From IMG/VR virus record IMGVR_UViG_3300042673_002246: 64,000 nt of DNA. One strand, 5' to 3'. Of this stretch, positions 18,866-34,381 are shown piece after piece. Source of the stretch: a virus. The position numbers and the translations under genes are program-made. The notes under the pieces were generated by a model that saw nothing but the letters and a program-made list of their open reading frames with translations, was not told where the DNA came from and did no database searches. Positions within the stretch are counted from its first letter, which is position 1; each line of letters starts with the position of its first letter.

Positions 18866-19691
18866 GGTCATTGCTCCGAGACCTGTGCGCTGCTGCTCTT
18901 GCTGGTGGCATTCCGGAATACTTGCCGTTGATGTATTCATCATAGTCTTCAGTGATTGAGCTCAACCAAACTTGTCCACCTGTGTCTGAAATCTCCAACT
19001 GTGGGTTTATCCCTTTTTCTTGAGATTCTGAGCCCTGGGCAAACCAGGCAAGGTACGTGAGTCTTTCTCCACTTGTGATAGTGGATATCTCATGGGCGGC
19101 TACGTAATTAGCCGGAAACAAAAGTATGTTTCCTTTTTGCGGTTTGATTGCAACGTCTGCATACGGAAATAACATTTCACCGCCACAAAACGCTCCTGGC
19201 GCTGGGGTTTCCGACCAGTCGTTAATGAAAACTATTGCACTCAGAACGTTTCTAGTTGCGTGTTCCTTGCTGGGCATTTTTCCATATCTGTAGTTCACAT
19301 CATTATCCGAATGAAGCCCCAGTGAACCACCGGTTGAATAAGAGAGGATATGTCCAGAAGTTCTCCACCACAGGCAGCTAAGGATTGCTGGAAACATTTC
19401 AATGTACTGCAAAAGACAGGAATATATCGCTGGCTCAAATTCGTTGTATATTTCGCTACCCAACCCTTGTAGTCTGAGTGGAGCTTTTGCCATGTCCTGC
19501 AGGCTATAAATAAAACCGCCCTGATTTAGCGCGTGGATTGGATTTCCGTTTTCATCTAGGACAACGGTAAAATTTTCTTCTATTGCCTTTTGCTTCAACT
19601 TCTCTATCTTGTCTGAAAATTTACTGAATTCGATGTTCGCAGCGGCCACAAACTCGATTATTCCATGACCATGATTTATCACGGAGCTCAT
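18858..19691 (-). CDS. 2OG-Fe(II) oxygenase (P4H-like)
   Basis: HSDND...GGEMLFP...HEISTITSGERL. Confidence 0.85.
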   Translation of the reverse strand: MSSVINHGHGIIEFVAAANIEFSKFSDKIEKLKQKAIEENFTVVLDENGNPIHALNQGGFIYSLQDMAKAPLRLQGLGSEIYNEFEPAIYSCLLQYIEMFPAILSCLWWRTSGHILSYSTGGSLGLHSDNDVNYRYGKMPSKEHATRNVLSAIVFINDWSETPAPGAFCGGEMLFPYADVAIKPQKGNILLFPANYVAAHEISTITSGERLTYLAWFAQGSESQEKGINPQLEISDTGGQVWLSSITEDYDEYINGKYSGMPPARAAAHRSRSNDHG

Positions 19692-20302
19692 AGCAGGGAC
19701 CTTATGGCTTGTTTTATTGAATTATCCTCCCCGAATAAAGCCTGCTCCGATATCGGTGATTCCGCCCAATTAAATCGACCAACATAAACGCCTTCTCGTG
19801 ATGTTAAGAATTTTTCCCAATTGTTCGGAACCCTCATTGCAACTTCCCCCGCTCTATTTCTTCCAGCAGCCGCAGCGGCACTCAAGTCGGCCATGCTGTC
19901 GTTAAAATTTCTTATTAGCTCTCCATTTAGGAATGAGTAAACGTCATGCCTATTTTGCCCGTTAACGTCTATTTTTTCTGCTATCGGAAATGTAACGTAG
20001 GGATAATTTTTTTTTATATTTTCAAAAATTTCCAAATTGTCGCCATTCTCCATGTTCCCAAATTGGTTGCATGGGTAACCGACGACGCTAAAACCGCTAT
20101 CACAAAATTCTTCATGAAGTTTTTGCAATTCCCAAAAATTTTTAGCTGTTCTTGCATAAGACCATAGACGACTGCACTTTGGCGAGTATCCGGTCTTTGA
20201 TACAACGTTTACATGGAGGAGCACTTTACCCCTTAACTGTCCAAGCAAATTTGGACAGCCATCCAAAGAGCTTATTTCTATATCAAAAATCGATTTACTC
20301 AT
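19688..20302 (-). CDS. Glutathione peroxidase-like protein (atypical active site)
   Basis: GKVLLHVNVVSKTG, GYPCNQFG, KIDVNG, NWEKFL. Start MSKSIFD at 20302. Confidence 0.85.
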   Translation of the reverse strand: MSKSIFDIEISSLDGCPNLLGQLRGKVLLHVNVVSKTGYSPKCSRLWSYARTAKNFWELQKLHEEFCDSGFSVVGYPCNQFGNMENGDNLEIFENIKKNYPYVTFPIAEKIDVNGQNRHDVYSFLNGELIRNFNDSMADLSAAAAAGRNRAGEVAMRVPNNWEKFLTSREGVYVGRFNWAESPISEQALFGEDNSIKQAIRSLL

Positions 20303-20594
20303 CCTCTGACACCGTACATGAGATTTTGGTATTAAGAAATTCACCTATTCTTAGAAAACCGCTTCCAGATTCCGTATCAATATCGATTTGTACCGTCGTA
20401 ATAATTGGTGCCTCTAGTTCAAATCTGCTACTTATACTCTTTCCGTTATTGCCGATGACCACATTTTCTCCAGGCACCACGTGGGTTCCCCTGCTATGGT
20501 TGATTGCAATTGAGCCATCTTCGGAAAGAGTTAATCTGCAAACTTCTTCCCCAAATGGTGTATCAACGGAGATATCCCAAGACCCCAAAATCAT
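20295..20594 (-). CDS. Hypothetical protein
   Basis: 99 aa, GSWDISVDTPFG, within the operon. Confidence 0.6.
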   Translation of the reverse strand: MILGSWDISVDTPFGEEVCRLTLSEDGSIAINHSRGTHVVPGENVVIGNNGKSISSRFELEAPIITTVQIDIDTESGSGFLRIGEFLNTKISCTVSEDE

Positions 20595-20601
20595 GGCATC
20601 G

Positions 20602-21210
20602 TTACTGTGAATTGCGGCCTCTTGCCCAAGGACTCATGTCCGGGTATACCGTTGTATTTGGAATTCTTGGGTGGAGGTTAAAGCTTACGCAAACTCTAGG
20701 TTTGTCTTCATTGTGTCTTTCTGTCTGATGGGGAACAAATGAGTTGAAAAATACAATCTTCCCTGTTTCTGGTTCTATTTTTGTAACCATGTTGTATGCG
20801 TTCATGGCTTCTCCGTAAAGGCAAAGTCGGCATCCTGGACCAACAGCATCGATGTAAATAACACCAGACCAGTACTCGCTTGGAAAAAGATGCGCATTCG
20901 AACTATGTCTATGGTAAGGAGTTGATTGTCCTTTTTCTAAAATTCCACACCATATGTCTGCAAGGACAACGTCGCCAAGTACTTCGTTGGCCCTATGCTC
21001 AATCATGTCACGCAAACCCTGACACTCTTTTGTGTTTGGCAGAACGTAATCAACCCCACTCTGCACGTCAACAAATTCTTTTGCATCTGGGAAATCTGGA
21101 TGTATTCTAGATTCCAAAATTTGAGACGCTATTACCGAATAATCAATTCCTTTAATGAATGATTCATGGGCTCTGATTGGAACTAACCAAATCCAGCCAT
21201 TGTTATTCAT
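20602..21210 (-). CDS. Putative 2OG-Fe(II) oxygenase (TIGR02466-like)
   Basis: HRHS...SGVIYI...FFNSFVPHQT...RVCVSFN. Confidence 0.8.
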   Translation of the reverse strand: MNNNGWIWLVPIRAHESFIKGIDYSVIASQILESRIHPDFPDAKEFVDVQSGVDYVLPNTKECQGLRDMIEHRANEVLGDVVLADIWCGILEKGQSTPYHRHSSNAHLFPSEYWSGVIYIDAVGPGCRLCLYGEAMNAYNMVTKIEPETGKIVFFNSFVPHQTERHNEDKPRVCVSFNLHPRIPNTTVYPDMSPWARGRNSQ

Positions 21211-21874
21211 GCGCAAAATCTCCTGTTGCTAGCCCCATTGGGGGAACATCTTTTGTCCATACATTAATGACCATTACTTGCCTTAGTCTAGACCCTGCTG
21301 GTGTCGTGTTATGTACCACATGGCCGGAATCAAATACTACGAGCCTGTTCCCCTTGTACCTAATCCTCTCTCTTTCATTTGGTGGAGAAGACGCGTATGC
21401 GGCAAGTACAGATGGCTCCAAGGCCAACGTTGAGCCATCCTCCAACCTTGAGTTGTGGATTTCGAGAAAGCCACCGTCATCATTATCGCATCCATACCAA
21501 ACACAGCCAATCCGCGGTCCGTAAAACGTACCTGTCAACAGATATGCAAATGTATCCTCATCTACATGCTCCCCTATGAACTGACCTGGTTCGAATGTCC
21601 TGGTCCAGTATTCGAAACCAATGACCTCTTCAATCGGAAAAGGTAATCTCTTTTTCCAGATTTCTTTTATAACTAAATGCTTGAGGCTTCTTGGTTGGCT
21701 TTTCCCCCATCCATCCCAAAACATATAGGACGATAGCTCCTTGGAATCCCCGTGATACGAGTTGAGACTTGTCGCTATTTGTTGACCATCTTCATATTTC
21801 GACGCGAAAAAAGTTTCATCGCGCAAGACTTGTTCGTACAATTCTGCCGGAACGCAGTTATCTTCAACGAACAT
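21203..21874 (-). CDS. 2OG-Fe(II) oxygenase
   Basis: FEYWTR, HVDED, GGFLEI, NRLVVFD..H...R. Confidence 0.8.
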   Translation of the reverse strand: MFVEDNCVPAELYEQVLRDETFFASKYEDGQQIATSLNSYHGDSKELSSYMFWDGWGKSQPRSLKHLVIKEIWKKRLPFPIEEVIGFEYWTRTFEPGQFIGEHVDEDTFAYLLTGTFYGPRIGCVWYGCDNDDGGFLEIHNSRLEDGSTLALEPSVLAAYASSPPNERERIRYKGNRLVVFDSGHVVHNTTPAGSRLRQVMVINVWTKDVPPMGLATGDFAHE

Positions 21875-21877
21875 AAT

Positions 21878-22594
21878 TTATAAAAACTTTTCATTCGGAA
21901 ATTTACTTCTGAGGTAAGCAAGGTCAAAGTCGAACATCAAAACAAGACGTCTTGATGTACCATCATGTCTTACCGAGTGCTCAAACGGCGGGCCATCCTT
22001 GAAAGCAAGAATCTTGCCTTCTTCCCAACTTTTTGTTTCGTCGCCTACGGTTATTCTACAGTCCTTATCGTTTATTAGGCACAGGTGACTTCTCATTAGT
22101 TGGTCAGAACCAAAATGCGGATTTACTACCGCCCCAGGATGCATTATGCTGAACATTCCGCCAGAACATTGGTTGCTGTCAGCGAACTCAGCAACTATCG
22201 AGTTAAACGTTTTGAATTGTTTCCTAACGTGCTCTAGGTGTGTTTCTAGATTGGCTTTTGTTTTCCACCTCAGTATTTTTTTTACCATTTCCGTATTTGC
22301 CCACTGCTTGGGGTCACTTGCTGGTGGAGTTCCGGCAACCGCTACGTCCCAGGAGCCTGTATAAAGCTTTCGCCTATCCCCTTCCGGCAAGTCTGATTGT
22401 GGATTTTCGTACCTTGCGTGAGAGAGGGTAACATTTGGGGCAGGCAGAGAAACCTTGTTATCGGAGTATGGGTGTTGAGTGTTTTCGTAAACGATGTACT
22501 CGTCACGTATCTTTTCCCAGTTTTTCTCAATCTGCACACACACGGGCAAGGACCTGATTAATTCATCCCAGAACCTTGGCTGCAAGTCACTCAT
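21878..22594 (-). CDS. Aspartyl/asparaginyl beta-hydroxylase family protein
   Basis: FSIMHPGAVVNPHFG, RSHLCL, WEEGKILAF, HSVRH, RLVLMFD. Confidence 0.85.
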   Translation of the reverse strand: MSDLQPRFWDELIRSLPVCVQIEKNWEKIRDEYIVYENTQHPYSDNKVSLPAPNVTLSHARYENPQSDLPEGDRRKLYTGSWDVAVAGTPPASDPKQWANTEMVKKILRWKTKANLETHLEHVRKQFKTFNSIVAEFADSNQCSGGMFSIMHPGAVVNPHFGSDQLMRSHLCLINDKDCRITVGDETKSWEEGKILAFKDGPPFEHSVRHDGTSRRLVLMFDFDLAYLRSKFPNEKFL

Positions 22595-22630
22595 TTTTTG
22601 ATACTAACACGTTTCACGTGCTTAAAGATT

Positions 22631-23356
22631 TTAATTTTTAATGAAAACCGTTTGTCCGTATCCGTTGGCCAGGTGGTATGTGTGCCCGTCGCTGTTTTTA
22701 AGAATTTCATGCATGCTTGAATATGGGTGAATATGAAAGTCTTCCCTGTAAAGCTTCGTATTGTGATTGGACATGCCAATCAGTAGAACACCACCAGGAT
22801 TCAGTGATTCAACCAAATCTTTAACAAGTTTGTCATTGCCCACAAGAGACCAACCCCAGCAAATGGCCATGTCAAATGTGTTTTCAGATATTTCATTTGG
22901 CTCGACGACGCAGTATTCGTTAAGCTCATTGATGCCCGGGCCAGGTAATTCTAGTTCCCCGGCAATATGCTCCAAAAAGAACAATGAGTGATTATTCACA
23001 AAACACAAGTCTGTGTCTGGAAATTTTGCTTTATACATACTCCAAAGTAGTATTTCTGCATCGACGAATAACAAGGAATTTGGCTTCTTTGTCATTAGAA
23101 CTTGTTCTTGAGCGATGTATTCAGCTTCGATTATCGCTGCCCATTCTGGTTCCATTCCCTTAATGAGTTCATAAATCCAGTATGTGTTCAGTCCTGCTAC
23201 AGCAACATTTCTCTTGTCAAGATTGATTGATGAAAGCCAGCTTGATACCGCGCTTCCTGCATCGCTCATCAACTGAGCAAAATCAATATTGTTGCTAAAT
23301 TGGGTCTTTGATGACTGCTGCGTCACCAGAGCGCTCCTAATTGCAAAATTATCCAT
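22631..23356 (-). CDS. Divergent SAM-methyltransferase-like protein
   Basis: FDMAIC...LVESLNPGGVLLI; motif I is not obvious. Confidence 0.5.
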   Translation of the reverse strand: MDNFAIRSALVTQQSSKTQFSNNIDFAQLMSDAGSAVSSWLSSINLDKRNVAVAGLNTYWIYELIKGMEPEWAAIIEAEYIAQEQVLMTKKPNSLLFVDAEILLWSMYKAKFPDTDLCFVNNHSLFFLEHIAGELELPGPGINELNEYCVVEPNEISENTFDMAICWGWSLVGNDKLVKDLVESLNPGGVLLIGMSNHNTKLYREDFHIHPYSSMHEILKNSDGHTYHLANGYGQTVFIKN

Positions 23357-24707: not shown

Positions 24708-25415
24708 TTATACTATGGGCTCCGAAAGTGCTGGCAGCCCAGCAAATGTTGGGCCTATTTGATTTCCGTCCGCGTCAAGACCTGTCTTAATGCCCTTTGT
24801 CCAAGTCCATGGGCGTTCGATATTGTTCTGCGACTTGAGTTGACCATATTTTGACCTTGCCTCCACCAGCTCCTTATCGTCCCATAGTGTCACTACCTCG
24901 AATTCTGCGTCTTTAATGATTTGAGGCGAGTAGATGTTAAAAAAACACAAAGGCGAACCGGCTGGGAAAACTACTTCCTGATTTTCTTTTGTTATCTTCC
25001 AGTTCATTTGAACTTCGTCAGGCCACCACCACGAAGGAATCGTTGCTGACAGCCCGACAGCGCCGTCTATAAAGTAATTTGGAGAGCCCGAAATCCAAGT
25101 CTCATACCCTGGCTCGGTGTTTATAATCCATCCCATGTGTAGGGAAATGGTTCCTATTATTGATGATGTGGCTTGCTTTCTGCCGCTTTTAGTAAATTCG
25201 CCTGCAAGTATTTCGGGGGGAGTGTTTCCGCCGGACCATTTAATTACAAGGTCCTCCTCCATCTGCACTTCCCATCCCATTACATTCGCCACGGAGACTG
25301 GCATGCATTGATAAGCGTGTTTTTTATGTGTCTCGTCCATCCAGTCTCTCTTTAATCTTGACTGAACTATCCGAGGTGGATTTGGGTCTGTTCTTTTTAA
25401 AACTATCTTGCTCAT
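24708..25415 (-). CDS. DUF6065-like protein
   Basis: RDWMDET...HAYQCMP...AN..GW, GSPNYF, MNWKIT. Confidence 0.7.
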   Translation of the reverse strand: MSKIVLKRTDPNPPRIVQSRLKRDWMDETHKKHAYQCMPVSVANVMGWEVQMEEDLVIKWSGGNTPPEILAGEFTKSGRKQATSSIIGTISLHMGWIINTEPGYETWISGSPNYFIDGAVGLSATIPSWWWPDEVQMNWKITKENQEVVFPAGSPLCFFNIYSPQIIKDAEFEVVTLWDDKELVEARSKYGQLKSQNNIERPWTWTKGIKTGLDADGNQIGPTFAGLPALSEPIV

Positions 25416-26131
25416 TTCTTTACCGACATATCAATACTTGTTCCAGACGAAACCCCAGCCCCATATGTTGCCTTTGAGCCGTCAATATTCTCCCCGTAGC
25501 CATGTTTGTGAGTTCTGTCGTTGTAGTCAAACATGGTCACTGCCGCATACTTTGTTCCAGAAACAACAGGTCGCGACGCGTGGGCATACGTAAACGTAGA
25601 TGGGAACATTACGTTGTCCCCAGCGGCAAACTTCACGTTTAGGTCAAGATATGGGAACCAAAGCTCACCCCCCTCGTAGTCGTCATTTATGTATATGACT
25701 GACGAAACTGTACAGTTATAAGAAAATCCATGGTCTGTGTGAACGTTGAAGTGCTGACCAGGCTTATATCGCACATAATTTATGGCTTCACGATAATCCA
25801 TTTTGATGTTAAATCTTTGCTGATAGTCGTTAAGACATGCCGTTAATATTTCAACGGTATCTTCGTATACTGAGCGAAGTCCGGAAAATTCTTGTGGCAA
25901 GTTTGCTATATGGGCATCTCCCAATTTACAATCAACGCAGTCTCTGTATTCTGGCATTTTTTGTTGGTCGCCAACGAGTGCATCCATCCACATATACGGC
26001 GCGGTTTCACTGGACCCAATCGCCTCTTCAATTCTCTCCGGTATGTTCAATTCCCGTGGGAGCGCATTGCGATAGACGATTATTGCCAATCTCGGGTCTC
26101 CAATAAACTCAACCTCGATATTTCTTACCAT
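25412..26131 (-). CDS. 2OG-Fe(II) oxygenase (P4H-like)
   Basis: HTDHG...NDDYEGGELWFP...HASRPVVSGTKY. Confidence 0.9.
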   Translation of the reverse strand: MVRNIEVEFIGDPRLAIIVYRNALPRELNIPERIEEAIGSSETAPYMWMDALVGDQQKMPEYRDCVDCKLGDAHIANLPQEFSGLRSVYEDTVEILTACLNDYQQRFNIKMDYREAINYVRYKPGQHFNVHTDHGFSYNCTVSSVIYINDDYEGGELWFPYLDLNVKFAAGDNVMFPSTFTYAHASRPVVSGTKYAAVTMFDYNDRTHKHGYGENIDGSKATYGAGVSSGTSIDMSVKK

Positions 26132-26663
26132 ATTGGTTGCTCCTTTTTTGTTTATGTTTCATAGAAAACCACATTGGGCATGCCCACCTATCCCCTCCGT
26201 ATACATTATCTACATAATGAGCAAATTCAATACCGCCACCATAAATTACAACCCGGCCTGGGGATGGCTTCACGGTATTGCCCGTATCGGCAAAAACAAG
26301 TTCCCCCCCATTGAATTCTTGGTTCAAATACAGAACCGCAGACACATCAAAGTCCTCACACCCAAGCTTTGGTGAGCCATCCAAATTCTGCCTGTCTGCG
26401 TGCAGTGTTGGGACATGAAGTCCAGATTTGCTGACAAAAATTCCGGGCATTCTATGCTCAAGTTCAATGTCATATTTTTTCTCTGCGGCTGCCATGACAA
26501 CCCATGATGCAAATATCAATGACTCGGCGGCTTCAAAATCTTCTGTCAGTAGTCTGTCAATTCCAATACTTTCGCCAATTTTTACTGCCGCCGACAATAT
26601 TTTGGAAATAGTCGTATCTTCAAAAAGCGAATCTATGATATGTACTTTGTCTACTCTATTCAT
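26109..26663 (-). CDS. 2OG-Fe(II) oxygenase (P4H-like)
   Basis: HADRQ...FNGGELVF...HYVDNVYGGDRW. Start likely ATG 26663. Confidence 0.85.
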   Translation of the reverse strand: MNRVDKVHIIDSLFEDTTISKILSAAVKIGESIGIDRLLTEDFEAAESLIFASWVVMAAAEKKYDIELEHRMPGIFVSKSGLHVPTLHADRQNLDGSPKLGCEDFDVSAVLYLNQEFNGGELVFADTGNTVKPSPGRVVIYGGGIEFAHYVDNVYGGDRWACPMWFSMKHKQKRSNQYGKKYRG

Positions 26664-27291
26664 CCACAACAGTATAGAACGATGGGGTCGTATATCTCTC
26701 CCCAGATTCAACCATGCTTACCCCGTGTAAGTACCCAACATCACCAGGATGTATCACTGCCAAGCCGGGTTTTGGTCTAACGGTAATCCCGTGCTGTGGG
26801 TAATACAAATCGCCACCCTCAAAGTCGTCATTGTAATAGAACAATGAATTGATGTCGTAATCCGTGAAGGCGTTTGGTCTTCCGTCATTTAGTTGCTTAT
26901 CGGCATGGGGGCGCTGCTCTATGCCTGCCCGCCATTTCATTATCACCGGAGGGCGCACTGAAACAGAAACCTGAAAAAGCTCTTCGATGAGGTTCTTCAT
27001 TTTGTAGATGTATTTATCAACAATTTCATAAACCTCCGAGTTCAGCTCCTTTAAAATTTCAGAACTGCACTGCCTGTCGTTCCAGTATTCTGCGTTATAC
27101 AAACATGTTCCATCTTCCGCATAAACGCTTTCGGCTGTGTTGTTCCATTTATTTATTGTTGGGCAAAATTTCTGAACTAAGAGCAAGTCTTCTAGTTCGA
27201 TAAAATTTTCAATTATGTGGATGTTCTCTGGTCCGCTGCCAAAATGCCCGGGTTTTATCTTCCAGGGTGAATCGATATCAATCATTTCCAT
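26656..27291 (-). CDS. 2OG-Fe(II) oxygenase (P4H-like)
   Basis: HADKQ...NDDFEGGDLYYP...HGVSMVESGERY. Confidence 0.9.
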   Translation of the reverse strand: MEMIDIDSPWKIKPGHFGSGPENIHIIENFIELEDLLLVQKFCPTINKWNNTAESVYAEDGTCLYNAEYWNDRQCSSEILKELNSEVYEIVDKYIYKMKNLIEELFQVSVSVRPPVIMKWRAGIEQRPHADKQLNDGRPNAFTDYDINSLFYYNDDFEGGDLYYPQHGITVRPKPGLAVIHPGDVGYLHGVSMVESGERYTTPSFYTVVDE

Positions 27292-28066
27292 GTGATTTCC
27301 TTTGGGACGTTATATGTTCATACAACATAACATCCAATTTGCTTCTTTCAAGTATTTCCTTTTTTTGTGACGGGCTCGGTTTTATTCCAGCTCGGACCGA
27401 TGAGTTCATTTTTTCTAAACCCAACCCTACAAATTCAACATTGAATTTATCCTTAAATTGATAAGTCAAATATTTTTCTACGGCCATTCGCTCGTTCATT
27501 TCAAAAATTGTAATGTCTTTAATTCTGTCTATTAGTTCTTTTTCTCCAGTAGGTAAATCGGACTCGACAAACCATGCACCATTAGGCTGAATACTAACCC
27601 CTGGTGATTCATCCCCAACATCTAAGACTGCATTGATTTCAACCATCCTGCACGTAAGCATCTTGGTTTGCAAATTTCCGTCAGATGAAAACAATTTACA
27701 TCCAAAAATTGTTTCGTATTTTCCGTCTAAGAACTTGTCAAGAATTTCGTTTGTAAATTCCCTTCGGGACGACATGGCCCTGTATGCAGCAATGCTGACA
27801 AAATGGTCTACCGGCTCCCTTATAACGGAGAACGTCTCCAGGCTGCTGTCGTTGTGTAAAATTGGATTGATTGCAAAATGACCACTAATTGTGGGCCATT
27901 CGCTCATTGTTATGTGATTATATGAAAATTCAAAAATCCCAGGGGTTTGGTTTTCGTATTTATCAAGACCCTTTTTGTATCTATCCAGTTCAAACGATTT
28001 ATGTATTGCGTAAAGTATTCCGGTCCCAGATGTGCGCGGTATATGCAGATGATAAAGATTACCCAT
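27278..28066 (-). CDS. Sulfotransferase family protein
   Basis: HLHIPRTSGT (5'-PSB loop) and IREPVDHFVS (3'-PB). Confidence 0.75.
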   Translation of the reverse strand: MGNLYHLHIPRTSGTGILYAIHKSFELDRYKKGLDKYENQTPGIFEFSYNHITMSEWPTISGHFAINPILHNDSSLETFSVIREPVDHFVSIAAYRAMSSRREFTNEILDKFLDGKYETIFGCKLFSSDGNLQTKMLTCRMVEINAVLDVGDESPGVSIQPNGAWFVESDLPTGEKELIDRIKDITIFEMNERMAVEKYLTYQFKDKFNVEFVGLGLEKMNSSVRAGIKPSPSQKKEILERSKLDVMLYEHITSQRKSHGND

Positions 28067-28643
28067 TTTGGGCCATCTCTATTAATTTCCTGTGTTTTTC
28101 TGGAACCCAGAAGTGGGGAGATGTATATCTAACTCCTTCTATCACTTGCCTTACGCCATGGAGGTAATAACTGCTGGATGGAAAAAATATCAAAGAACCC
28201 TCTTTTGGTTTTAGTTCAAGTCCGTGTTGCGGAAAATATATTTCCCCACCTGTGTAATTCTGATTTATATAAATTACGGAACCGTAATCAACTATGTATG
28301 TTCCGTTTGGCGTGCCGTCTAGGTCTTCGCCATCCGCGTGAAGACCTTGACTCTCCCCAGAGTCCCATCTTCGTATGCCCGGTCTTGCTGTCTCTAGGAT
28401 TCTCCCAAATTTAAACTCAATCATTTTCTTTACGTCATCAACGTATGATTGCATTATTTCATAGAGTTCGGGGTTATCCTTCTGCATTTTTTTGTATGTG
28501 GATATCTTGTCATTACCGCCCTTTGACCATGACTCCCACTCATTGATTGAATAGCAATAGCGATATGCAAGTTCGACGTGTTCGGGCGTCATAAAATTTT
28601 CTACTACAACTATGTTTGATTTGTCGGCAGCTGCAGCTCTCAT
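28059..28643 (-). CDS. 2OG-Fe(II) oxygenase (P4H-like)
   Basis: HADGE...YTGGEIYFP...HGVRQVIEGVRY. Confidence 0.9.
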   Translation of the reverse strand: MRAAAADKSNIVVVENFMTPEHVELAYRYCYSINEWESWSKGGNDKISTYKKMQKDNPELYEIMQSYVDDVKKMIEFKFGRILETARPGIRRWDSGESQGLHADGEDLDGTPNGTYIVDYGSVIYINQNYTGGEIYFPQHGLELKPKEGSLIFFPSSSYYLHGVRQVIEGVRYTSPHFWVPEKHRKLIEMAQNG

Positions 28644-28653
28644 GGCTACAACC

Positions 28654-29589
28654 TTATCTATTTTGCAAAAACTCGTCTATATCAGCGCTTATGAGCTGCA
28701 ACGAAAAATCTATGCCTTTTCTCTGGGTGATATTTGGCCAAGCGGTACCAGTTTTTGAGTACGAGATGTGGCCAGGTTCTTCTACGTGTTCAGTTTTTGG
28801 CTTGTAGTAACGACGTCCATTTTCATCGTATCTTTCTTCAAGCCATGGAAACATTTCTCCGTCTGGATTTCTCTCCCCAAGCAAAAATCCATTTGCATAA
28901 CGCTTGATTCTTGTTCCAGTTCTATCGATAAGGAACTTTTCAAAATTGCCTCGGAGAGGATAAAACCCACGTTTTCCTGTATCAACTTTTGCGTAACCAT
29001 CTGGTGTTAGCTCATTCGAGAAAGACCAAGGTATTTCCTCATAATGGTATGGCACTCCGTTTGGTTGGAGGTCTGCTTTGTATGCTCCAGTTAAGTACCA
29101 CCACAGGTCGTGCTGTTCTTGCATTTTAATTTTTCCTGGAACAAAATTCTCATCGTAGGTATGTTTATCAAATCTTCCATTTGTTAATTCAGAAAATTGA
29201 TACGTAACACCAAAATTCTCTTTCGCGTACTGTTCAGACAATTGGCCCGGCGTGATATCTAGTTCATTTTTATCCAAGTACGCCTGGAGACCTTCTTGAA
29301 ATTCGGGATATCCGTGGCAAACAAAATCATCAACAACAACCGCAAGAATATCAAAATCATCTTCGTTTTTGTATTTTTGATTTAATTCTTCGATTACGGA
29401 GTGTTGTGGAATATTCCCACATCCAGCCGACACATTAAAAATAAGAGTAACTTTTCCCTTGCGGTTTTTTAGTATGTCTGATGATTTTCCATCAGCTGAC
29501 GACAAATTAATGTCATATATGGAAAACGGAAGAACCGTGTCACTCCAATCATTTTCCGCAATTGGCGCTTCTTGTATTTCGCAGTCCAT
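28654..29589 (-). CDS. Glutathione peroxidase-like protein
   Basis: GKVTLIFNVSAGCGN, GNFEKFLIDRTG. Start overlaps the TGA of the PPFF gene. Confidence 0.8.
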   Translation of the reverse strand: MDCEIQEAPIAENDWSDTVLPFSIYDINLSSADGKSSDILKNRKGKVTLIFNVSAGCGNIPQHSVIEELNQKYKNEDDFDILAVVVDDFVCHGYPEFQEGLQAYLDKNELDITPGQLSEQYAKENFGVTYQFSELTNGRFDKHTYDENFVPGKIKMQEQHDLWWYLTGAYKADLQPNGVPYHYEEIPWSFSNELTPDGYAKVDTGKRGFYPLRGNFEKFLIDRTGTRIKRYANGFLLGERNPDGEMFPWLEERYDENGRRYYKPKTEHVEEPGHISYSKTGTAWPNITQRKGIDFSLQLISADIDEFLQNR

Positions 29590-30833
29590 CACTTAAACCC
29601 TGGTGGGAAAAACGGCGGGAAGAAAGGTGGGAAAAATGGCGGGAAGAAAGGTGGGAAGAACGGTGGAAAGAAAGGCGGGAAAAATGGCGGGAAAAATGGA
29701 GGAAAGTATGGAGGGAAATATGGAGGGAAATATGGAGGAGCTACCGGGCTTACTGAACCAGACGAAGCAGAGGTCTGGAATCCGTAGCTATTGGTTGCTC
29801 TTACGGTGAATGTATAGGCAGTACCGTTGGTGAGACCTGTAACGGTAATAGGAGAAGTTCCAGAGGCCTGAACGTTTCCTGGCGATGAAATTGCAGTGAA
29901 TGTTGTGGAACCAGTTCCCGCAGCTCCTGCAGTAAATGAGACAGTCACTTGAGCGTTTCCTGCAGCACCAGATACCCCAGTTGGTGCACCCGGCCTGTTT
30001 CCTGCCGTCACCGAGTTTGACGCAGCAGAAGTTGCTGAACCATACACAGAAGATGCGGTAACGGTAAATGTATATGCTTGACCTGCGGTTAAACCCGTAG
30101 CCCTAATTGGGCTTGTTCCGGTAAAGGTCAATGCCCCAGGACTCGTTGTTACTGTGTATGTGGGAGAACCAGTTCCAGTCGCGCCTGGTGTGAATGGAAC
30201 ATCAATCGCCCTATCTACGTTTTGAACAATTACAGCGGTGCCTATTGCTGGGGCAGTTGGTTTGTTCCCGGCAACTACTGAGTTTGATGCAGCAGAAGTT
30301 GCTGCACCGAACAAGTTTGATGCGGTAACAGTAAATGTGTAAGAGGTTCCAGCAGTTAGGCCAGTCACTCTAATAGGACTGGAGCCAGTTGCGGTAATTC
30401 CTTCCGGCGAAGATGTTGCCGTAAACGTTGTCGCTCCAGTACCAGCTGCACCAGCCGTATAAGCAACGTCTATAGCTCTATCTGTGTTTGCAACGATTGA
30501 TGCAGTTCCGATTGTAGGAGCACCTGGGTTTTGGCCGATTGCAACAGATGATGTGGAAACAGAATCTGATGGAACGCCATAATTTGTTGTTGCAACAAGA
30601 GAGAATGTATAGCTCGTACCAGCAGTAAGACCAGTTACTGTTATTGGCGAACTTGAGGCGGAGGCGCTAATGCTTCCCGGGTTTGATGTAGCGGTATAGG
30701 TTATTGCATCTTTACCTATATACTCAGACGGCGTAAAAGATATTGAAGCCACAGTGCCCACGCCGGTATTCGTCGCTGTGACGTTAGTTGGCGTAGTTGG
30801 CTTTTTCCCACCACTGTCTTTTATTGCTTCCAT
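29589..30833 (-). CDS. Fibronectin type III repeat virion protein with C-terminal (PPYF)3(PPFF)8 tail (cassette 2 tip)
   Basis: Four FN3-like repeats (SPI.VTGLT.G..YTF.V.A.N) followed by the Pro/Phe tetrapeptide repeat. Confidence 0.8.
   Translation of the reverse strand: MEAIKDSGGKKPTTPTNVTATNTGVGTVASISFTPSEYIGKDAITYTATSNPGSISASASSSPITVTGLTAGTSYTFSLVATTNYGVPSDSVSTSSVAIGQNPGAPTIGTASIVANTDRAIDVAYTAGAAGTGATTFTATSSPEGITATGSSPIRVTGLTAGTSYTFTVTASNLFGAATSAASNSVVAGNKPTAPAIGTAVIVQNVDRAIDVPFTPGATGTGSPTYTVTTSPGALTFTGTSPIRATGLTAGQAYTFTVTASSVYGSATSAASNSVTAGNRPGAPTGVSGAAGNAQVTVSFTAGAAGTGSTTFTAISSPGNVQASGTSPITVTGLTNGTAYTFTVRATNSYGFQTSASSGSVSPVAPPYFPPYFPPYFPPFFPPFFPPFFPPFFPPFFPPFFPPFFPPFFPPGFK
29601..29738 (-). 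repeat. 12-bp coding tandem repeat encoding (PPYF)3(PPFF)8PP
   Basis: The units differ at synonymous positions (cca/ccg/cct/ccc, ttt/ttc). Confidence 0.95.
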
Positions 30834-30836
30834 GGT

Positions 30837-31613
30837 TTATGCCGAAAGGTCTCCGATGAGCACCCAGGTGTCAGCTGCTCTTTTTATCAGCGTAGCACCT
30901 GACCACTGCGCTCGCATTTTGCGTCCAGGTGTTGCGTTAATGGTCACCCCTGAACCCTGCGTAACAGTGCACTGACCTGCCCCTGTTTGAATAACCGTGA
31001 TATGCGTTCCAGTTGCAAAAAACACCGATGAATCAGGGGGGACTGTCAAGGTATTAGCTGTGGCAACGTTCATCTCGATAATCTTATTTCTATCCGAAAG
31101 AACAAGCGTGTAGCTAGCCGCCTGAGCGTTTGTCAATGGTTCTGCTAACTTATTCCTTCCTATACCAGCGTCGGATGAAATGTCACCATCGACTATTGTG
31201 CCGTCTTCAATCATGTACGAAGTAATGACCGCTTGGTCGGTTAGAACAACCGCTGTTCCAGCAATTTTTTCTGGGTTGATTTCTGCGCCGTTGGCAATAT
31301 GAGTATCGCTAATAGCGTCATCAATAATCGTCAGTGAACCTGTGTGGAACAATTGCACGTCTCCGGATATGGCGGTTGAAGTAGCAACACCGGATGAGTT
31401 ATACATAACAATCTTGCCAGGGTCACTATCTACAAGTCTGTTGAGAGGGACGGAATCCTCGGTTAGAGACGAACCAGCAACAGCGCCCGAAGAAAACATT
31501 GCTGATGGGATTGTTACAAGAACCCAACCAGAACCGTTGAAGGTCCAGGTCTTACCCGAACTTACGTGAAGGTCGCCTGATTGTGCACCTGATGGAAAGT
31601 CAATTGCTGGCAT
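30837..31613 (-). CDS. Fibre/adaptor protein with shared C-terminal domain (cassette 2 fibre)
   Basis: Starts MPAIDFPS (ATG 31613); ends RAQWSGATLIKRAADTWVLIGDL. Confidence 0.7.
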   Translation of the reverse strand: MPAIDFPSGAQSGDLHVSSGKTWTFNGSGWVLVTIPSAMFSSGAVAGSSLTEDSVPLNRLVDSDPGKIVMYNSSGVATSTAISGDVQLFHTGSLTIIDDAISDTHIANGAEINPEKIAGTAVVLTDQAVITSYMIEDGTIVDGDISSDAGIGRNKLAEPLTNAQAASYTLVLSDRNKIIEMNVATANTLTVPPDSSVFFATGTHITVIQTGAGQCTVTQGSGVTINATPGRKMRAQWSGATLIKRAADTWVLIGDLSA

Positions 31614-31615
31614 GT

Positions 31616-34381
31616 TTAGGCCTGTGCTTCCGTCCAAGATAGACGGGCAAACACGGTTGCTGATGCCGAACCGATGTTTCTAGCAACAATATGCAGCGTG
31701 TCTGGTCCGTCTGGATATATACCTGTTGTTGTTGATGTCGTACCGCCACCAAGAACAGAGTTGCCAAGGTCACGAACGTCCTCAAGGCTAATCTGAACAC
31801 CACCAATACCACCAGTGAAGAAACCGCCAGTAACTTCACCACCGCTCACTTGAGCATCAACTGCGGAATAATCTGCAATTTGAGCCAAGCTCGAGGTAAC
31901 TGTGGTCGGTTTTGACCATGTTCTTGAAACGGTCGGAACTCCGTTGAGAATCGCCGTGATTAGAAGGTTTGACGTACTTGAAGTTGTCGTTACGTCCAGG
32001 TTGCGGAGTACGAGTTGCATTCTGTTCACCAGCTCACGCTCACCGAAAGCAGCCGATGTTCCATTATCTGCCGACGGTGACACACGTATAGCCAATAGTG
32101 CTTTTGTTGCGCCAGACGCAATCGCGATACCGGTTGTCTGGCCATATGTAAACACGAGCGATTTGTCGTCATCGAATCTTCCGTCCATAATCGCTGAGGT
32201 TCCCCAGTGAGAAATGGAAGGAGCATAAGTTGGGAATGCCAACTCAACGCCCACTGGATTTGATGCTGAGTATGTGAATGCAAGTGCCGCATTTGTACCC
32301 ATCGGAATTGCGCTTACTGTTGGGTTCGCGCCAGTTACTGCCGCGCTCAGTTTGATATTGTTTCCAGAAATTTGCTGAATAAACGTACCATCAGGCACGT
32401 CTGTTCCAGTAACTCTCTGACCAACTTGTAATCCGGAGTTGGAGGCCACTGTTCCGTCGTTGGCTCCAGCCGCAATTGTTATGGCAAGGGAAGCGTTTCC
32501 TGTTTGCTGTCTTGTTAGACCAGTGAACGTTGTAGCAGTCTTTCCTGTGTAGTTAATAAATTCATAACCAGTTGCCGTATTGAATACACACAATGTGCCG
32601 GCACTTGGAAATCCAGTCGTACTGCCAACATTCATGGTCGTTGTTTCAGAATCGGATAATGTTCCGGTTAGCTGAGTGTGTGGTGGCTGACTAAGACTTT
32701 CGTATCTTGCTGGAAGGTTTCCAGAGCGCATATACGCTTCAGCGTTTGTATTGTTATTAACTATTTTATGGGCGTACGTTACTTTTCCGTCTTTTGCCCG
32801 CATTCCCCAGCGAATAAAACCAGCACCATACCACGAATAGTCAATGTAGAACATCTGCATTCTTGAAAGGTCAACGTTGTAGCCGGAAGCTCCCGTTCCG
32901 TCGAACTTGTCTAGATTCCATTCAGCTTGTGGATACTTTGTGTCCACTGTTTTGGAAACTGAAACCATGGTTGAAGTAGAACCACGCCATGCTGGGCTAA
33001 TTGTCATCGATGTATTGCTTGCAATATCTGTAACCCTGTATGACATGCCTCGAGCAACGATGTAATCTCCGATTTCTAGCTGTCCTGCATATCTCGTTGG
33101 GAACGCTGCGTTTGTTTGAGTCACGGTGCATGAGCCATTTGTGAATGATGACTTACCAGAAATCTGGAATGTTGATGAACGTTTTACGGCCCACAACGTT
33201 TGCCCGTCAAATTCAAAGAACACTCCGTTTTGGTCGTCAAACAAACCAATTCTGTTTACGTTTCCATACCAACCTGCAACGGTAATGTAATAAGGACCAG
33301 AAGCAAGAACGTTCGTTCCAGTCGAAGTTGCTGGAGTATACGTAAATGTATTGTACCCAGTAATCGTATAAACGGTTGTTGTACCGTTAAAGATTGCCTC
33401 ATTGGCGCCAAAAATAGTTATTGTCGAGCCTGGGTAGAGGTTGTGCTTCTCTTTGGTTTGCACAGTTACCAAGTTTGTTGATGAGTTGTAGTTGAGTTGG
33501 TCCAGCTGAAGGTCTGGTTTAAGGAGCGTTCCAGATGACATCTGGATTCCCTTTCCTGACTGATAACGGAAGTAACGACGTGTTTGACGTGTGGCTAGTT
33601 CGTAGTTTGAAGTTCCATTATTTGAGAAGATAACTCCACCATCAAAAGGTCTGTGCAGGAAGTTGCCCGATGGAGCCACATATACAGATGCCGACGATGC
33701 AGTCAATGTTCCAGTTGGAGCAACTGGTGCATGATAAACAAACTGTGTTGAGCTTATAATTCTTGAAACAAAGTTCGCACCGTTTGGAGGATTTGAGCCA
33801 GATGTTGTAATTCCTGTTACAGCAACTTCGTTGCCTATCGAAAGACCATGCGGGATTGTTGTTGTCACCGTAACAGCTGTTCCAGAATATGAAACAGTTG
33901 GAGCTCCACCAATTTTTGCGTTTGTAAAAATAACACCAGTAAAAATTGCAGTTTTGTTTGCATCAAGAATTGATGTCAGTGCTCCAGTATTGACAGCTTT
34001 ACCTGTATAGGTAAATGACGTGTTGGTGGTTACAGACTCAATAAGGTAGGCACCGTTAGCAATTGATAGCTGCGTATCTCTGACGGTAATTGGTGTCCCA
34101 ACAGCAAGTCCGGTTGTGTCGGTGAGTGAAACGGTAACTGTTCTCGACGATGTATTCATCGTAATCGCAGTAATTGTTGTTACCGGACTTGACGAGTCAT
34201 AAATAAACGGGCGCGCACCTACTGTCGTTAGGTTTTCCCACTTTGAAATTTGAGTTCCGTATTCAAAGTCGGTGTCAATCAGTGACTGTGGCTGGGATAC
34301 GCGGAGCTTCTGTACTGGGTCGTACAGCACTTCCTCTGGAGTAATCGGCGTCAAGCCAGGAGGTATTTGATTAAGACCCAT
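31616..34381 (-). CDS. Large virion structural/fibre protein
   Basis: 921 aa, Thr/Ser/Gly-rich beta sequence; LRVSQPQSLIDTDFEYG, HGLSIG, YSWYGAG. Confidence 0.6.
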   Translation of the reverse strand: MGLNQIPPGLTPITPEEVLYDPVQKLRVSQPQSLIDTDFEYGTQISKWENLTTVGARPFIYDSSSPVTTITAITMNTSSRTVTVSLTDTTGLAVGTPITVRDTQLSIANGAYLIESVTTNTSFTYTGKAVNTGALTSILDANKTAIFTGVIFTNAKIGGAPTVSYSGTAVTVTTTIPHGLSIGNEVAVTGITTSGSNPPNGANFVSRIISSTQFVYHAPVAPTGTLTASSASVYVAPSGNFLHRPFDGGVIFSNNGTSNYELATRQTRRYFRYQSGKGIQMSSGTLLKPDLQLDQLNYNSSTNLVTVQTKEKHNLYPGSTITIFGANEAIFNGTTTVYTITGYNTFTYTPATSTGTNVLASGPYYITVAGWYGNVNRIGLFDDQNGVFFEFDGQTLWAVKRSSTFQISGKSSFTNGSCTVTQTNAAFPTRYAGQLEIGDYIVARGMSYRVTDIASNTSMTISPAWRGSTSTMVSVSKTVDTKYPQAEWNLDKFDGTGASGYNVDLSRMQMFYIDYSWYGAGFIRWGMRAKDGKVTYAHKIVNNNTNAEAYMRSGNLPARYESLSQPPHTQLTGTLSDSETTTMNVGSTTGFPSAGTLCVFNTATGYEFINYTGKTATTFTGLTRQQTGNASLAITIAAGANDGTVASNSGLQVGQRVTGTDVPDGTFIQQISGNNIKLSAAVTGANPTVSAIPMGTNAALAFTYSASNPVGVELAFPTYAPSISHWGTSAIMDGRFDDDKSLVFTYGQTTGIAIASGATKALLAIRVSPSADNGTSAAFGERELVNRMQLVLRNLDVTTTSSTSNLLITAILNGVPTVSRTWSKPTTVTSSLAQIADYSAVDAQVSGGEVTGGFFTGGIGGVQISLEDVRDLGNSVLGGGTTSTTTGIYPDGPDTLHIVARNIGSASATVFARLSWTEAQA

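What the first reader, a model, noticed from the sequence alone, without database searches (positions are those of the whole stretch)
29589..29738. (PPYF)3(PPFF)8 tail on an FN3 protein, placed directly ahead of the hydroxylase operon
Seen: 11 tetrapeptide units with varied synonymous codons, so the repeat is maintained at protein level rather than by recent slippage. Its stop codon overlaps the start of the GPx-like gene. Known: PPFF occurs in the cyclic peptides antamanide and cyclolinopeptide A, and mussel adhesive proteins use hydroxyproline and DOPA in Pro/Tyr repeats. Inference: this is a polyproline/aromatic substrate for Pro (and perhaps Phe/Tyr) hydroxylation, giving an adhesive or receptor-binding tip, or a cleavable multi-core peptide precursor.
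Basis: partly seen in the sequence, partly recalled or inferred. Interest (0 to 1): 0.85.

Follow-up and report, generated by a model that had tools for sequence, protein, structure and literature searches.

The report
Proline-phenylalanine tail with matched phage hydroxylases
An uncultured phage puts a 48-residue Pro-Pro-Tyr/Phe-Phe tail on a fibre-locus protein, and across many phages this undescribed tail sits just upstream of collagen-type proline-hydroxylase-like genes, so it is probably their substrate, though no chemistry has been shown.

Summary
Window 29589-30833 (minus strand) encodes four FN3 domains followed by (PPYF)3(PPFF)8-PPGF-K. Codons vary synonymously, and the stop overlaps the start of a glutathione-peroxidase-like gene.

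The tail is one case of a widespread, undescribed phage module.
- At least 119 IMG/VR contigs carry in-frame PP[F/Y/H/W]F arrays.
- 62 of 73 have P4H-like 2OG oxygenases or DUF6065 within 3 kb downstream, against 1 of 46 upstream.
- In the reverse test, 50 of 51 DUF6065 loci have such a tail gene upstream.
- In the nearest complete genome, all seven PF13640 genes lie directly downstream of the tail gene.

New here:
- In 51 cassettes, an extra P4H-like orthologue is present exactly when the tail contains single-proline (F-P-F) units. The two traits change together about three times on the tree.
- Some tails are followed by self-cleaving Hint/BIL or S74 chaperone domains.
- The second aromatic position is Phe in 99% of units.
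- DUF6065 has a dUTPase-like fold.

I read the tail as a non-globular rod or tether that these enzymes hydroxylate. That step is inferred, not shown. The multi-core peptide-precursor idea is not supported. This scan found the same module before on other DNA, and I found no publication describing it.

The parts
29589..30833 (-). Fibre-locus accessory protein, 414 aa: four FN3 domains plus a Pro-Pro-aromatic-Phe tail
   Evidence: ORF and translation. Pfam fn3 E 2.1e-17. AF2 models the last FN3 with block-mean pLDDT 72-93.
29595..29738 (-). The tail: (PPYF)3(PPFF)8PPGF, followed by Lys (29592-29594) and TGA (29589-29591)
   Evidence: AF2 gives pLDDT 55-63 and no regular secondary structure. Homologous tails are aligned in A2.
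30837..31637 (-). Fibre-tip-like protein (start codon uncertain); the conserved upstream neighbour of tail genes
   Evidence: Its C-terminus matches the ends of PHROG tail and virion proteins (phrog_18179, 8780, 16053). A homologue lies directly upstream of the tail gene in 51 of 76 loci.
31616..34381 (-). Large virion structural or fibre protein
   Evidence: phrog_5838 E 2.3e-273. It is 42-45% identical to virion structural proteins of S-PM2, S-H9-1 and other Kyanoviridae.
28654..29589 (-). Glutathione-peroxidase-fold protein with an insertion of about 110 aa; its start overlaps the stop of the tail gene
   Evidence: Pfam GSHPx 28.4 bits, cut-off 27. PDB GPx matches at residues 21-97 and 205-233. 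The NVSAGCG motif is visible.
28059..28643 (-). 2OG-Fe(II) oxygenase, PKHD/prolyl-hydroxylase-like
   Evidence: PF13640 33.8 bits. Matches 3dkq at E 4.2e-9, and P3H1 and PBCV-1 P4H weakly.
27278..28066 (-). Conserved cassette protein of unknown family
   Evidence: No Pfam or PHROG match. Homologues occupy the same position in close cassettes (L027, L038, L047, L084).
26656..27291 (-). 2OG-Fe(II) oxygenase (ox26656 type), a near-constant cassette member
   Evidence: phrog_61 E 2.9e-15. Weak matches to P3H1, PiuC and B. anthracis P4H. 86 best hits in the loci.
26109..26711 (-). 2OG-Fe(II) oxygenase
   Evidence: PF13640 38 bits.
25412..26131 (-). P4H-like oxygenase; the orthologue found in all but one of the 51 cassettes examined (group A)
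   Evidence: PF13640 41.5 bits. B. anthracis P4H 3itq/5hv0 at E 2.4e-5. H131, D133, H184 and K194 are invariant in 35 sequences. Tree.
24708..25415 (-). DUF6065 protein, core cassette member, with a dUTPase-like beta fold
   Evidence: PF19541 147.9 bits. AF2 pLDDT 89.9. Foldseek top hits are all dUTPases.
17181..23356 (-). Rest of the co-oriented island: Asp/Asn beta-hydroxylase-like gene, five more 2OG oxygenases, a second GPx-like gene and unknowns
   Evidence: Pfam.

Best explanation
The 414-aa protein is an accessory protein of the tail-fibre gene cluster of an uncultured T4-like myovirus whose host is unknown. Its 48-residue tail belongs to an undescribed phage module: arrays of Pro-Pro-[Phe/Tyr/His/Trp]-Phe units, mixed in some lineages with Pro-Phe-Phe units, 12 to 142 residues long. 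The array is non-globular. It acts as a rod or tether placed after surface-type domains (FN3, PASTA). It may end free (...PPxFK), carry a Cys-rich knob, or be followed by a self-removing Hint/BIL or S74 chaperone domain.

Shown here: the module is encoded between a fibre-tip-like gene and a co-oriented, tightly packed set of P4H-like 2OG/Fe(II) oxygenases plus DUF6065. This order is kept across lineages whose DUF6065 proteins are only about 25% identical. An extra P4H-like orthologue is present exactly when the tail has single-proline units.

Inferred: during late infection the oxygenases hydroxylate prolines of the tail, with different paralogues serving different proline contexts and perhaps aromatic side chains. 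This would make an otherwise very hydrophobic Pro/Phe polymer soluble and fix it in an extended polyproline-II-like form, as hydroxyproline does in extensins and collagen. The overlapping GPx-fold protein may deal with peroxide from uncoupled turnover or act on the Tyr units. The finished tail would serve as a spacer or adhesive end of a fibre accessory protein.
For: Occurrence.

Neighbourhood.
- Where 3 kb or more of flank is available, 62 of 73 have oxygenase or DUF6065 homologues downstream, 60 of them on the same strand, against 1 of 46 upstream.
- In the reverse direction, 50 of 51 loci found through DUF6065 alone, with 5 kb or more of upstream flank, have a PP[FY]F ORF upstream on the same strand.
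- The nearest complete genome, G001 (153.9 kb), has all seven PF13640 matches at 97.8-110.5 kb and the tail at 111.76-111.86 kb.

Enzyme type.
- The universal enzyme keeps HxD...H with Lys ten residues after the second His. Its best solved relative is B. anthracis P4H.

Co-variation.
- In 51 cassettes, tails with at least one F-P-F unit have two ox25412-type genes (28 of 28), and strict PP tails have one or none (23 of 23).
- The extra gene forms its own well-supported orthologous group, found only with such tails.
- On the DUF6065 tree both traits change three times, always together.

Position-specific constraint.
- Position 4 is Phe in 99.2% of units. Tyr, His and Trp occur only at position 3.

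Fibre context.
- Neighbours match PHROG tail and virion families.
- L036 has ...PPAFK followed directly by a Peptidase_S74 chaperone domain.
- At least 11 tails are followed by a Hint/BIL domain.

Second case in the window.
- The FN3 protein at 39385-40356 ends in PPPPPP/(SPPP)4 plus a Cys knob, and a P4H-like gene lies about 0.8 kb downstream at 37974-38561.
Against: No modification has been observed, so the evidence is genomic only.
- The co-variation rests on only 2-3 independent contrasts (sign test not significant) and on quick trees that carry long-branch warnings.
- 11 of 73 tail ORFs have no oxygenase within 3 kb. These are mostly large proteins with internal arrays.
- Cultured cyanomyoviruses with many related oxygenases have no such tail (0 of 5 genomes), so this enzyme superfamily has other roles in phages.
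- In the one viral precedent, PBCV-1, hydroxyproline was not detected in virions (PMC7019647).
- Known P4Hs act on X-Pro-Gly or poly-Pro/Ser-Pro contexts. Activity next to bulky Phe is untested.
- The cassette also sits beside other possible substrates, such as the fibre-tip protein and Cys-rich tips.
Confidence: 0.55

Rival explanations
1. The tail is an unmodified structural spacer or hydrophobic tether. The neighbouring oxygenases act on something else, such as other fibre proteins, host envelope or cytoplasmic targets, or 2OG/nitrogen metabolism. The shared neighbourhood only reflects a co-inherited variable island next to the fibre genes.
For: The literature proposes metabolic or DNA-repair roles for cyanophage 2OG oxygenases and says their function has not been investigated (PMC3037559; PMC9602691). 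Cultured cyanomyoviruses have the enzymes without the tails. 11 of 73 tails lack nearby oxygenases. AF2 sees no fold that would require modification.
Against: The order is strictly one-sided and on the same strand across very divergent lineages, even though the N- and C-terminal domains of the tail protein are shuffled. The reverse association is near-perfect. The extra orthologue tracks the tail's proline context. In G001 the oxygenases occur nowhere else in the genome.
Confidence: 0.3
2. The tail is mainly a hydrophobic adhesive or anchoring end. It would bind the host envelope, or dock the protein onto the virion or fibre. Hint-bearing relatives would use a C-terminal thioester to attach it covalently. 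Hydroxylation, if any, would be secondary.
For: The composition is extreme, about 48% Pro and 47% Phe. Many members have a free ...PPxFK end. Self-cleaving Hint/BIL and S74 domains lie exactly at the tail's end in relatives. The N-terminal domains are of adhesin type (FN3; PASTA in P0006).
Against: Many arrays are internal, lying between FN3 domains or before Cys knobs, which fits a spacer better than a terminal anchor. This reading does not explain the dedicated enzyme set or its co-variation with the tail. It is not exclusive of the best explanation.
Confidence: 0.1
3. The gene is a precursor of many small Pro-Pro-Phe-Phe peptides, a multi-core RiPP in the manner of antamanide or cyclolinopeptide, cut out and tailored by the neighbouring enzymes.
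Against: The units are contiguous, with no recognition or cleavage spacers. No protease, macrocyclase or leader-binding protein was found among the cassette genes that were scanned; several small ORFs were not scanned. The array is fused to FN3 and other virion-type domains and to fibre maturation domains. The locus is a tail-fibre cluster.
Confidence: 0.03
4. The array is a non-functional low-complexity slippage product or a wrong reading frame.
For: Simple-sequence DNA with partial 24- and 36-nt periodicity. Short ORFs exist on the opposite strand.
Against: The frame is continuous with four FN3 domains. Codons vary synonymously. The same peptide array is kept in 118 distinct proteins from contigs with 24-50% G+C, with Phe fixed at position 4.
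Confidence: 0.01

Closest known systems
Chlorovirus PBCV-1 prolyl 4-hydroxylase (PDB 5c5t) and the virus's own proline-rich repeat ORFs (Eriksson et al. 1999, cited in PMC7019647)
   Same: A virus-encoded small P4H-type 2OG oxygenase together with virus-encoded proline-rich tandem repeats that are its presumed substrates. The biological role is unproven in both cases.
   Different: PBCV-1 is a eukaryotic virus with a single enzyme. Its repeats are of the Pro-Ala-Pro-Lys type (from my own knowledge of that paper). I know of no conserved repeat-enzyme operon there. Here the repeat is Pro-Pro-aromatic-Phe, sits in a fibre-locus protein and is followed by up to a dozen oxygenases plus DUF6065. Sequence similarity to 5c5t is only marginal (E 0.06-0.17).
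Plant and algal hydroxyproline-rich glycoproteins (extensins) with their P4Hs and cross-linking peroxidases
   Same: Extended proline-rich rods with interspersed Tyr, hydroxylated by poly-Pro-accepting P4Hs. A peroxidase-type protein is associated. The window also has an (SPPP)4 protein next to a P4H-like gene.
   Different: The tail has no Ser-Pro(3-5) motif. Half of its residues are Phe. The peroxidase here has a GPx fold, not a class III haem peroxidase. Glycosylation was not examined. This is an analogy, not homology.
Bacterial and phage collagen-like proteins with Bacillus anthracis-type P4H (PDB 3itq, 5hv0)
   Same: The best solved relative of the universal cassette enzyme is B. anthracis P4H (E 2.4e-5). 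Collagen-like segments are common in phage fibres and are sometimes followed by S74 chaperone domains.
   Different: The tail has no Gly at every third residue, so it cannot form a collagen triple helix. The period is 4, or mixed 3 and 4.
2OG-Fe(II) oxygenase arrays of cultured cyanomyoviruses (Syn9, S-SCSM1 and others)
   Same: Same enzyme superfamily. All 276 phage records matching the window's enzyme are cyanophage-type records. The function of these arrays is unexplained in the literature.
   Different: Identity is only 25-45%. The cultured phage collection has no DUF6065. Five cultured genomes have no PP[FY]F tail.
Hint/bacterial intein-like (BIL) domains and Peptidase_S74 intramolecular chaperones at the C-termini of fibre and surface proteins
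   Same: In relatives the tail is followed directly by one of these self-removing domains, as in endosialidase and T5-type fibres or BIL proteins.
   Different: The window's own protein has neither domain. It ends at the point where those domains would cleave (...PPGFK).

Membership tests
Fibronectin type III domain (PF00041) | Profile match above the curated cut-off; beta-sandwich of about 90 aa | tested here: met
   63.5 bits against a cut-off of 25. AF2 models the last unit as seven strands with block-mean pLDDT 72-93.
P4H-type 2OG-Fe(II) oxygenase (PF13640) | Profile match, HxD...H iron triad, and Lys ten residues after the second His for 2OG binding | tested here: met
   Window 25412-26131 scores 41.5 bits against a cut-off of 27. 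H131, D133, H184 and K194 are invariant in 35 homologues. B. anthracis P4H matches at E 2.4e-5.
P4H-type 2OG-Fe(II) oxygenase (PF13640) | Prolyl hydroxylase activity on a peptide substrate | not testable with these tools
   Needs an enzyme assay or mass spectrometry.
Collagen-like protein | Gly at every third residue (Gly-X-Y)n | tested here: not met
   The tail contains one Gly in 48 residues and has period 4.
Extensin / HRGP | Ser-Pro(3-5) repeats with Tyr cross-link motifs | tested here: not met
   The tail has no Ser-Pro runs. A different protein in the window (39385-40356) does carry (SPPP)4.
Multi-core RiPP precursor | Leader or recognition sequence, cleavage sites flanking each core, and a protease or macrocyclase in the cluster | tested here: not met
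   The units are contiguous. No such enzyme was found among the cassette genes scanned against Pfam or PHROGs; several small ORFs were not scanned.
Glutathione peroxidase (PF00255), for the overlapping downstream gene | Profile match and a peroxidatic Cys in the NVAS.CG motif | tested here: met
   28.4 bits against a cut-off of 27, which is marginal. NVSAGCG is present. PDB GPx matches fall in two blocks around an insertion of about 110 aa. The rest of the catalytic tetrad was not verified.
DUF6065 (PF19541) | Profile match above the cut-off | tested here: met
   147.9 bits against a cut-off of 26.6.
Trimeric dUTPase | Fold similarity and the conserved dUTPase motifs | tested here: inconclusive
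   For DUF6065, Foldseek gives E 4e-6 and TM 0.64-0.71 by target, but identity is only 9-16% and only about 130 of 235 residues are covered. No sequence-level match to dUTPases. The motifs were not checked.
Peptidase_S74 intramolecular chaperone (in relative L036) | Profile match starting at the conserved Ser directly after the stalk | tested here: met
   43.6 bits against a cut-off of 22, starting at residue 126, directly after ...PPAFK.
Hint / bacterial intein-like domain (in at least 11 relatives) | N-terminal Cys or Ser nucleophile, and a profile match to Hint or intein families | tested here: inconclusive
   The profile of 11 sequences matches BIL domain 2lwy at E 2.2e-7 and several mini-inteins. 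Cys or Ser stands at position 1, and two members (L033, L055) carry His-Asn at or near the end. Single-sequence Pfam matches stay below the curated cut-offs.

The most novel reading that the evidence does not exclude
Phages of this group make a previously unknown post-translationally hydroxylated Pro/aromatic fibre polymer. It would be a functional analogue of collagen or extensin built from Pro-Pro-aromatic-Phe units. Separate P4H-like orthologues would serve each proline context. Relatives would be matured by self-cleaving Hint or S74 domains. A GPx-fold protein might cross-link the Tyr units. This would give the large, unexplained 2OG-oxygenase arrays of aquatic phages a concrete role in building virions.
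Probability: 0.35. Interest if true: 0.85.

Novelty: new variant of a known kind. Interest (0 to 1): 0.72.

Why it matters
Aquatic myoviruses carry many 2OG-Fe(II) oxygenase genes. Their function has been guessed at (nitrogen metabolism, DNA repair) but, according to the literature read here, never investigated. This locus offers a specific substrate that can be synthesised and a paired-enzyme prediction: orthologue A for F-P-P-F contexts and orthologue B for F-P-F contexts. A simple co-expression and mass-spectrometry experiment can test both.

If confirmed, it would show that phages hydroxylate their own fibre proteins, and it would define a new proline/aromatic structural repeat. The DUF6065 family is large, with at least 1,807 clusters at 90% identity, all unnamed. 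A functional context for it would annotate a sizeable piece of viral dark matter.

Tried and rejected
- Predicted complex of the universal P4H-like enzyme (alignment A3) with the tail (A2, residues 78-130) and Fe: no verdict, score 0.00, controls not run. This is not evidence either way.
- AF2 of the last FN3 plus tail: the tail has pLDDT 55-63 and no regular structure.
- tblastn of the whole protein and of DUF6065 against 50,697 cultured phage records: no match. The low-complexity filter may hide the tail itself.
- Megablast of the 9.7-kb region: only a 156-nt hit to S-H9-2.
- Literature searches for PPFF with phage, for DUF6065, and for hydroxyproline in phage fibres: nothing relevant.
- psbA and hli were sought in the nearest complete genome and not found, so I do not call it a cyanophage.
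- Scans for sigma-70-type promoters, intrinsic terminators and the T4 late-promoter motif gave nothing above chance between the tail gene and the oxygenases.
- A link between the GPx-like gene and Tyr-rich tails (9 of 21 against 4 of 52) is suggestive, but relatedness is not controlled, so I do not rely on it.
- A 12-residue Tyr super-period is present in some relatives (unit spacing of 3 seen 35 times) but not in this window's tail, and block duplication of DNA could produce it.
- The atlas search for DUF6065 returned only unnamed viral clusters.
Full report
**Observation.** Window 29589-30833 on the minus strand is a 414-codon ORF. Its product ends ...SPVA-(PPYF)3-(PPFF)8-PPGF-K-stop. A six-frame scan finds this array at 29595-29738 and nowhere else in the window. 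Pfam assigns fn3 at 63.5 bits, and the sequence shows four FN3-like units. Pro and Phe codons vary synonymously between units. Tandem Repeats Finder reports 80% match at period 12, 85% at 24 and 79% at 36. The DNA is therefore not a fresh slippage array, although multi-unit blocks have been copied. The stop TGA overlaps the GTG/ATG of the next ORF, 28654-29589. That ORF has a glutathione-peroxidase fold with an insertion of about 110 residues.

**Setting.** Upstream on the same strand lie fibre and virion genes.
- A 1006-aa protein whose N-terminus matches tail-fibre PHROGs.
- A 921-aa protein in phrog_5838, 42-45% identical to virion structural proteins of S-PM2, S-H9-1 and other Kyanoviridae.
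- A 266-aa protein whose C-terminus matches the ends of PHROG tail proteins.

Downstream, packed with small gaps or overlaps, are the following genes.
- The GPx-like gene.
- Four PF13640-type oxygenases, an unknown protein and DUF6065.
- Then an Asp/Asn beta-hydroxylase-like gene, five more 2OG oxygenases and a second GPx-like gene.

Promoter and terminator scans show nothing above chance inside this run. The window's own assembly is not held. The nearest record, G001, is a 153.9-kb viral genome rated complete. It has neither psbA nor hli, so I call the phage a T4-like myovirus related to cyanomyoviruses, with host unknown.

**The tail is a widespread module.**
- Read in frame, these give 118 distinct proteins with arrays of 12-142 residues, about 48% Pro and 47% Phe.
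- Within four-residue units, position 4 is Phe in 99.2%. Position 3 is Phe 74%, Tyr 17%, His 2% and Trp 1%. This asymmetry points to a position-specific constraint rather than mere composition.
- Some lineages mix in three-residue Pro-Phe-Phe units.
- What flanks the array varies. Before it come one to four FN3 domains, a small domain of about 60 aa, a PASTA domain or other surface-type repeats. After it come nothing (...PPxFK-stop, as here), a Cys-rich knob, more FN3 domains, or a self-removing domain.
- L036 reads ...PPAFK and then a Peptidase_S74 chaperone domain from its first residue.
- At least 11 proteins continue with a 150-170-aa domain that starts with Cys or Ser. As a profile this domain matches a bacterial intein-like domain (2lwy, E 2.2e-7) and mini-inteins.
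- In 185,579 species genomes only 22 stretches match the pattern. Just six are real tails, all on MAG contigs carrying the same phage cassette.
- Cultured phages lack DUF6065 and the protein. Five cultured cyanomyoviruses have no PP[FY]F pair.

**Link to the oxygenases.** I searched the ORFs of the 119 loci with the window's island proteins.
- The order fibre-tip-like gene, tail gene, oxygenases plus DUF6065 recurs on one strand.
- With 3 kb or more of flank, 62 of 73 tail ORFs have an oxygenase or DUF6065 homologue downstream (60 on the same strand), against 1 of 46 upstream. The fibre-tip-like gene is directly upstream in 51 of 76.
- The loci range from 24 to 50% G+C. Their DUF6065 proteins fall to about 25% identity with the window's, so this is not one recent lineage.
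- In the reverse test, 80 loci were fetched through DUF6065 alone (58-100% identity). Of those with 5 kb or more of upstream flank, 50 of 51 carry a PP[FY]F ORF upstream on the same strand.
- In G001 all seven PF13640 matches lie at 97.8-110.5 kb and the tail at 111.76-111.86 kb.

**Enzymes.** The most constant oxygenase (window 25412-26131) keeps H131, D133, H184 and K194 in 35 homologues. This is the P4H arrangement, with Lys ten residues after the second His. Its best solved relative is Bacillus anthracis P4H (E 2.4e-5). The other two tested resemble PKHD-type hydroxylases, prolyl 3-hydroxylase 1 and P4Hs, more weakly. DUF6065 folds confidently (pLDDT 89.9). Its structural neighbours are all trimeric dUTPases at 9-16% identity, and it has no sequence-level relative in the PDB. 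Its role is unknown. The family has at least 1,807 unnamed clusters.

**Co-variation.** I examined 51 cassettes in which the genes between the tail gene and DUF6065 are fully visible.
- Every tail with at least one single-proline unit (F-P-F) has two ox25412-type genes (28 of 28).
- Every strict Pro-Pro tail has one or none (23 of 23).
- A tree of these enzymes splits them at 99% SH-aLRT into two groups. One holds the single genes, including the window's, plus one gene of each pair. The other holds only the extra genes, normally the first gene after the tail.
- On the DUF6065 tree both traits need three changes and change together.
- Only two or three independent contrasts exist, so the sign test is not significant. 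The trees are quick ones with long-branch warnings.
- I take this as suggestive enzyme-substrate matching, not proof.

**Mechanism.** The tail is probably an extended, non-globular rod or tether. AF2 gives no regular structure for it, with pLDDT 55-63. The P4H-like enzymes probably hydroxylate its prolines before assembly, which would make the Pro/Phe polymer soluble and stiff, as hydroxyproline does in extensins and collagen (established chemistry, my own knowledge). The self-removing S74 and Hint domains in relatives suggest that a free, or thioester-activated, tail end matters. The S74 case hints at trimeric assembly. These last points are inference. A second FN3 protein in the window ends in PPPPPP/(SPPP)4 plus a Cys knob and has a P4H-like gene about 0.8 kb downstream. 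So proline-rich ends paired with P4H-like genes occur twice here.

**Against.**
- No chemistry has been shown.
- The complex prediction gave no verdict (listed under tried and rejected only).
- Hydroxyproline was not found in PBCV-1 virions (PMC7019647).
- Related oxygenases exist in cultured cyanophages that lack such tails.
- 11 of 73 tails lack nearby oxygenases.
- The multi-core peptide-precursor idea fails its defining features: no cleavage spacers, no protease or cyclase, and a virion-type domain context.

**Novelty.** Full-text searches found no description of the repeat, of DUF6065, or of hydroxylated phage fibres. The cyanophage literature calls the function of the oxygenases uninvestigated (PMC9602691; PMC3037559). 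The closest known system is PBCV-1 P4H with its proline-rich viral repeats. This scan has already reported the same module on other genomes with the same reading. Their description of the hosts as lake phages was not tested here.
- the reverse association;
- the whole-genome localisation in G001;
- the position-4 Phe rule;
- the Hint and S74 fusions;
- the DUF6065 fold;
- the orthologue and proline-context co-variation.

Noticed in passing
window 24708-25415 (-): The DUF6065 protein is the most constant non-oxygenase member of the cassette. It folds confidently (pLDDT 89.9), and its structural neighbours are all trimeric dUTPases at 9-16% identity. R23, W25, M26, H33, A34, Y35, C37, P39, N44, G47, N113 and G221 are invariant in 35 homologues. 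The family has at least 1,807 unnamed metagenomic clusters.
   Followed up: partly
L033:6902-7390, L043:517-981, L055:3349-3858, L062:3863-4321, L067:8066-8515, L091, L111, L112, L115, L025, L007: In at least 11 relatives the Pro/Phe array is followed directly by a 150-170-aa Hint/bacterial-intein-like domain. It has a Cys or Ser first residue; two members (L033, L055) have His-Asn at or near the end, and little or no C-extein follows. This suggests self-cleavage, or thioester-mediated ligation, of the tail's C-terminus.
   Followed up: partly
L036:1085-1771 (-): A small tail protein reads ...PPAFK and then a Peptidase_S74 intramolecular chaperone domain (Pfam E 3.7e-11). Autocleavage would leave the same ...PPxFK end that the window's protein has naturally. 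Several other relatives carry short SDxRLK-like remnants after the tail.
   Followed up: partly
window 39385-40356 (-) and 37974-38561 (-): A second FN3 protein in the window ends in PGPPPPPP, (SPPP)4 and a 12-Cys knob. A P4H-like oxygenase (phrog_61, E 5e-27) lies about 0.8 kb downstream. This is a second pairing of a proline-rich end with a hydroxylase in the same window.
   Followed up: partly
window 28654-29589 (-): The GPx-fold protein keeps the peroxidatic-Cys motif NVSAGCG, but its GPx core is split by an insertion of about 110 aa (PDB matches at residues 21-97 and 205-233). Across loci, GPx-like genes occur more often beside Tyr-rich tails (9 of 21 against 4 of 52), but relatedness is not controlled.
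   Followed up: partly
L216, L221, L225/L233, L228, L229 (genome contigs): Contigs binned into Verrucomicrobiales, Gammaproteobacteria, Acidibacter and Cyclobacteriaceae MAGs carry the full phage cassette (tail, fibre-tip gene, oxygenases). They are probably phage contigs mis-binned into MAGs, so they give no reliable host assignment.
   Followed up: no
G001 (nearest complete viral genome, 153.9 kb): It has no psbA and no hli, although its fibre proteins and oxygenases find their only cultured relatives among cyanomyoviruses. The host of this phage group is open.
   Followed up: partly
window 29562-29809 (+): Three short plus-strand ORFs (64-71 aa) cross the repeat DNA on the opposite strand. 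They do not extend beyond the repeat area and are most likely artefacts of the repeat.
   Followed up: yes
window 29595-29738 (-) and relatives: Eleven or more consecutive Pro-Pro motifs should stall ribosomes without elongation factor P (general knowledge). I did not examine whether this slows translation of the tail or matters for modification.
   Followed up: no
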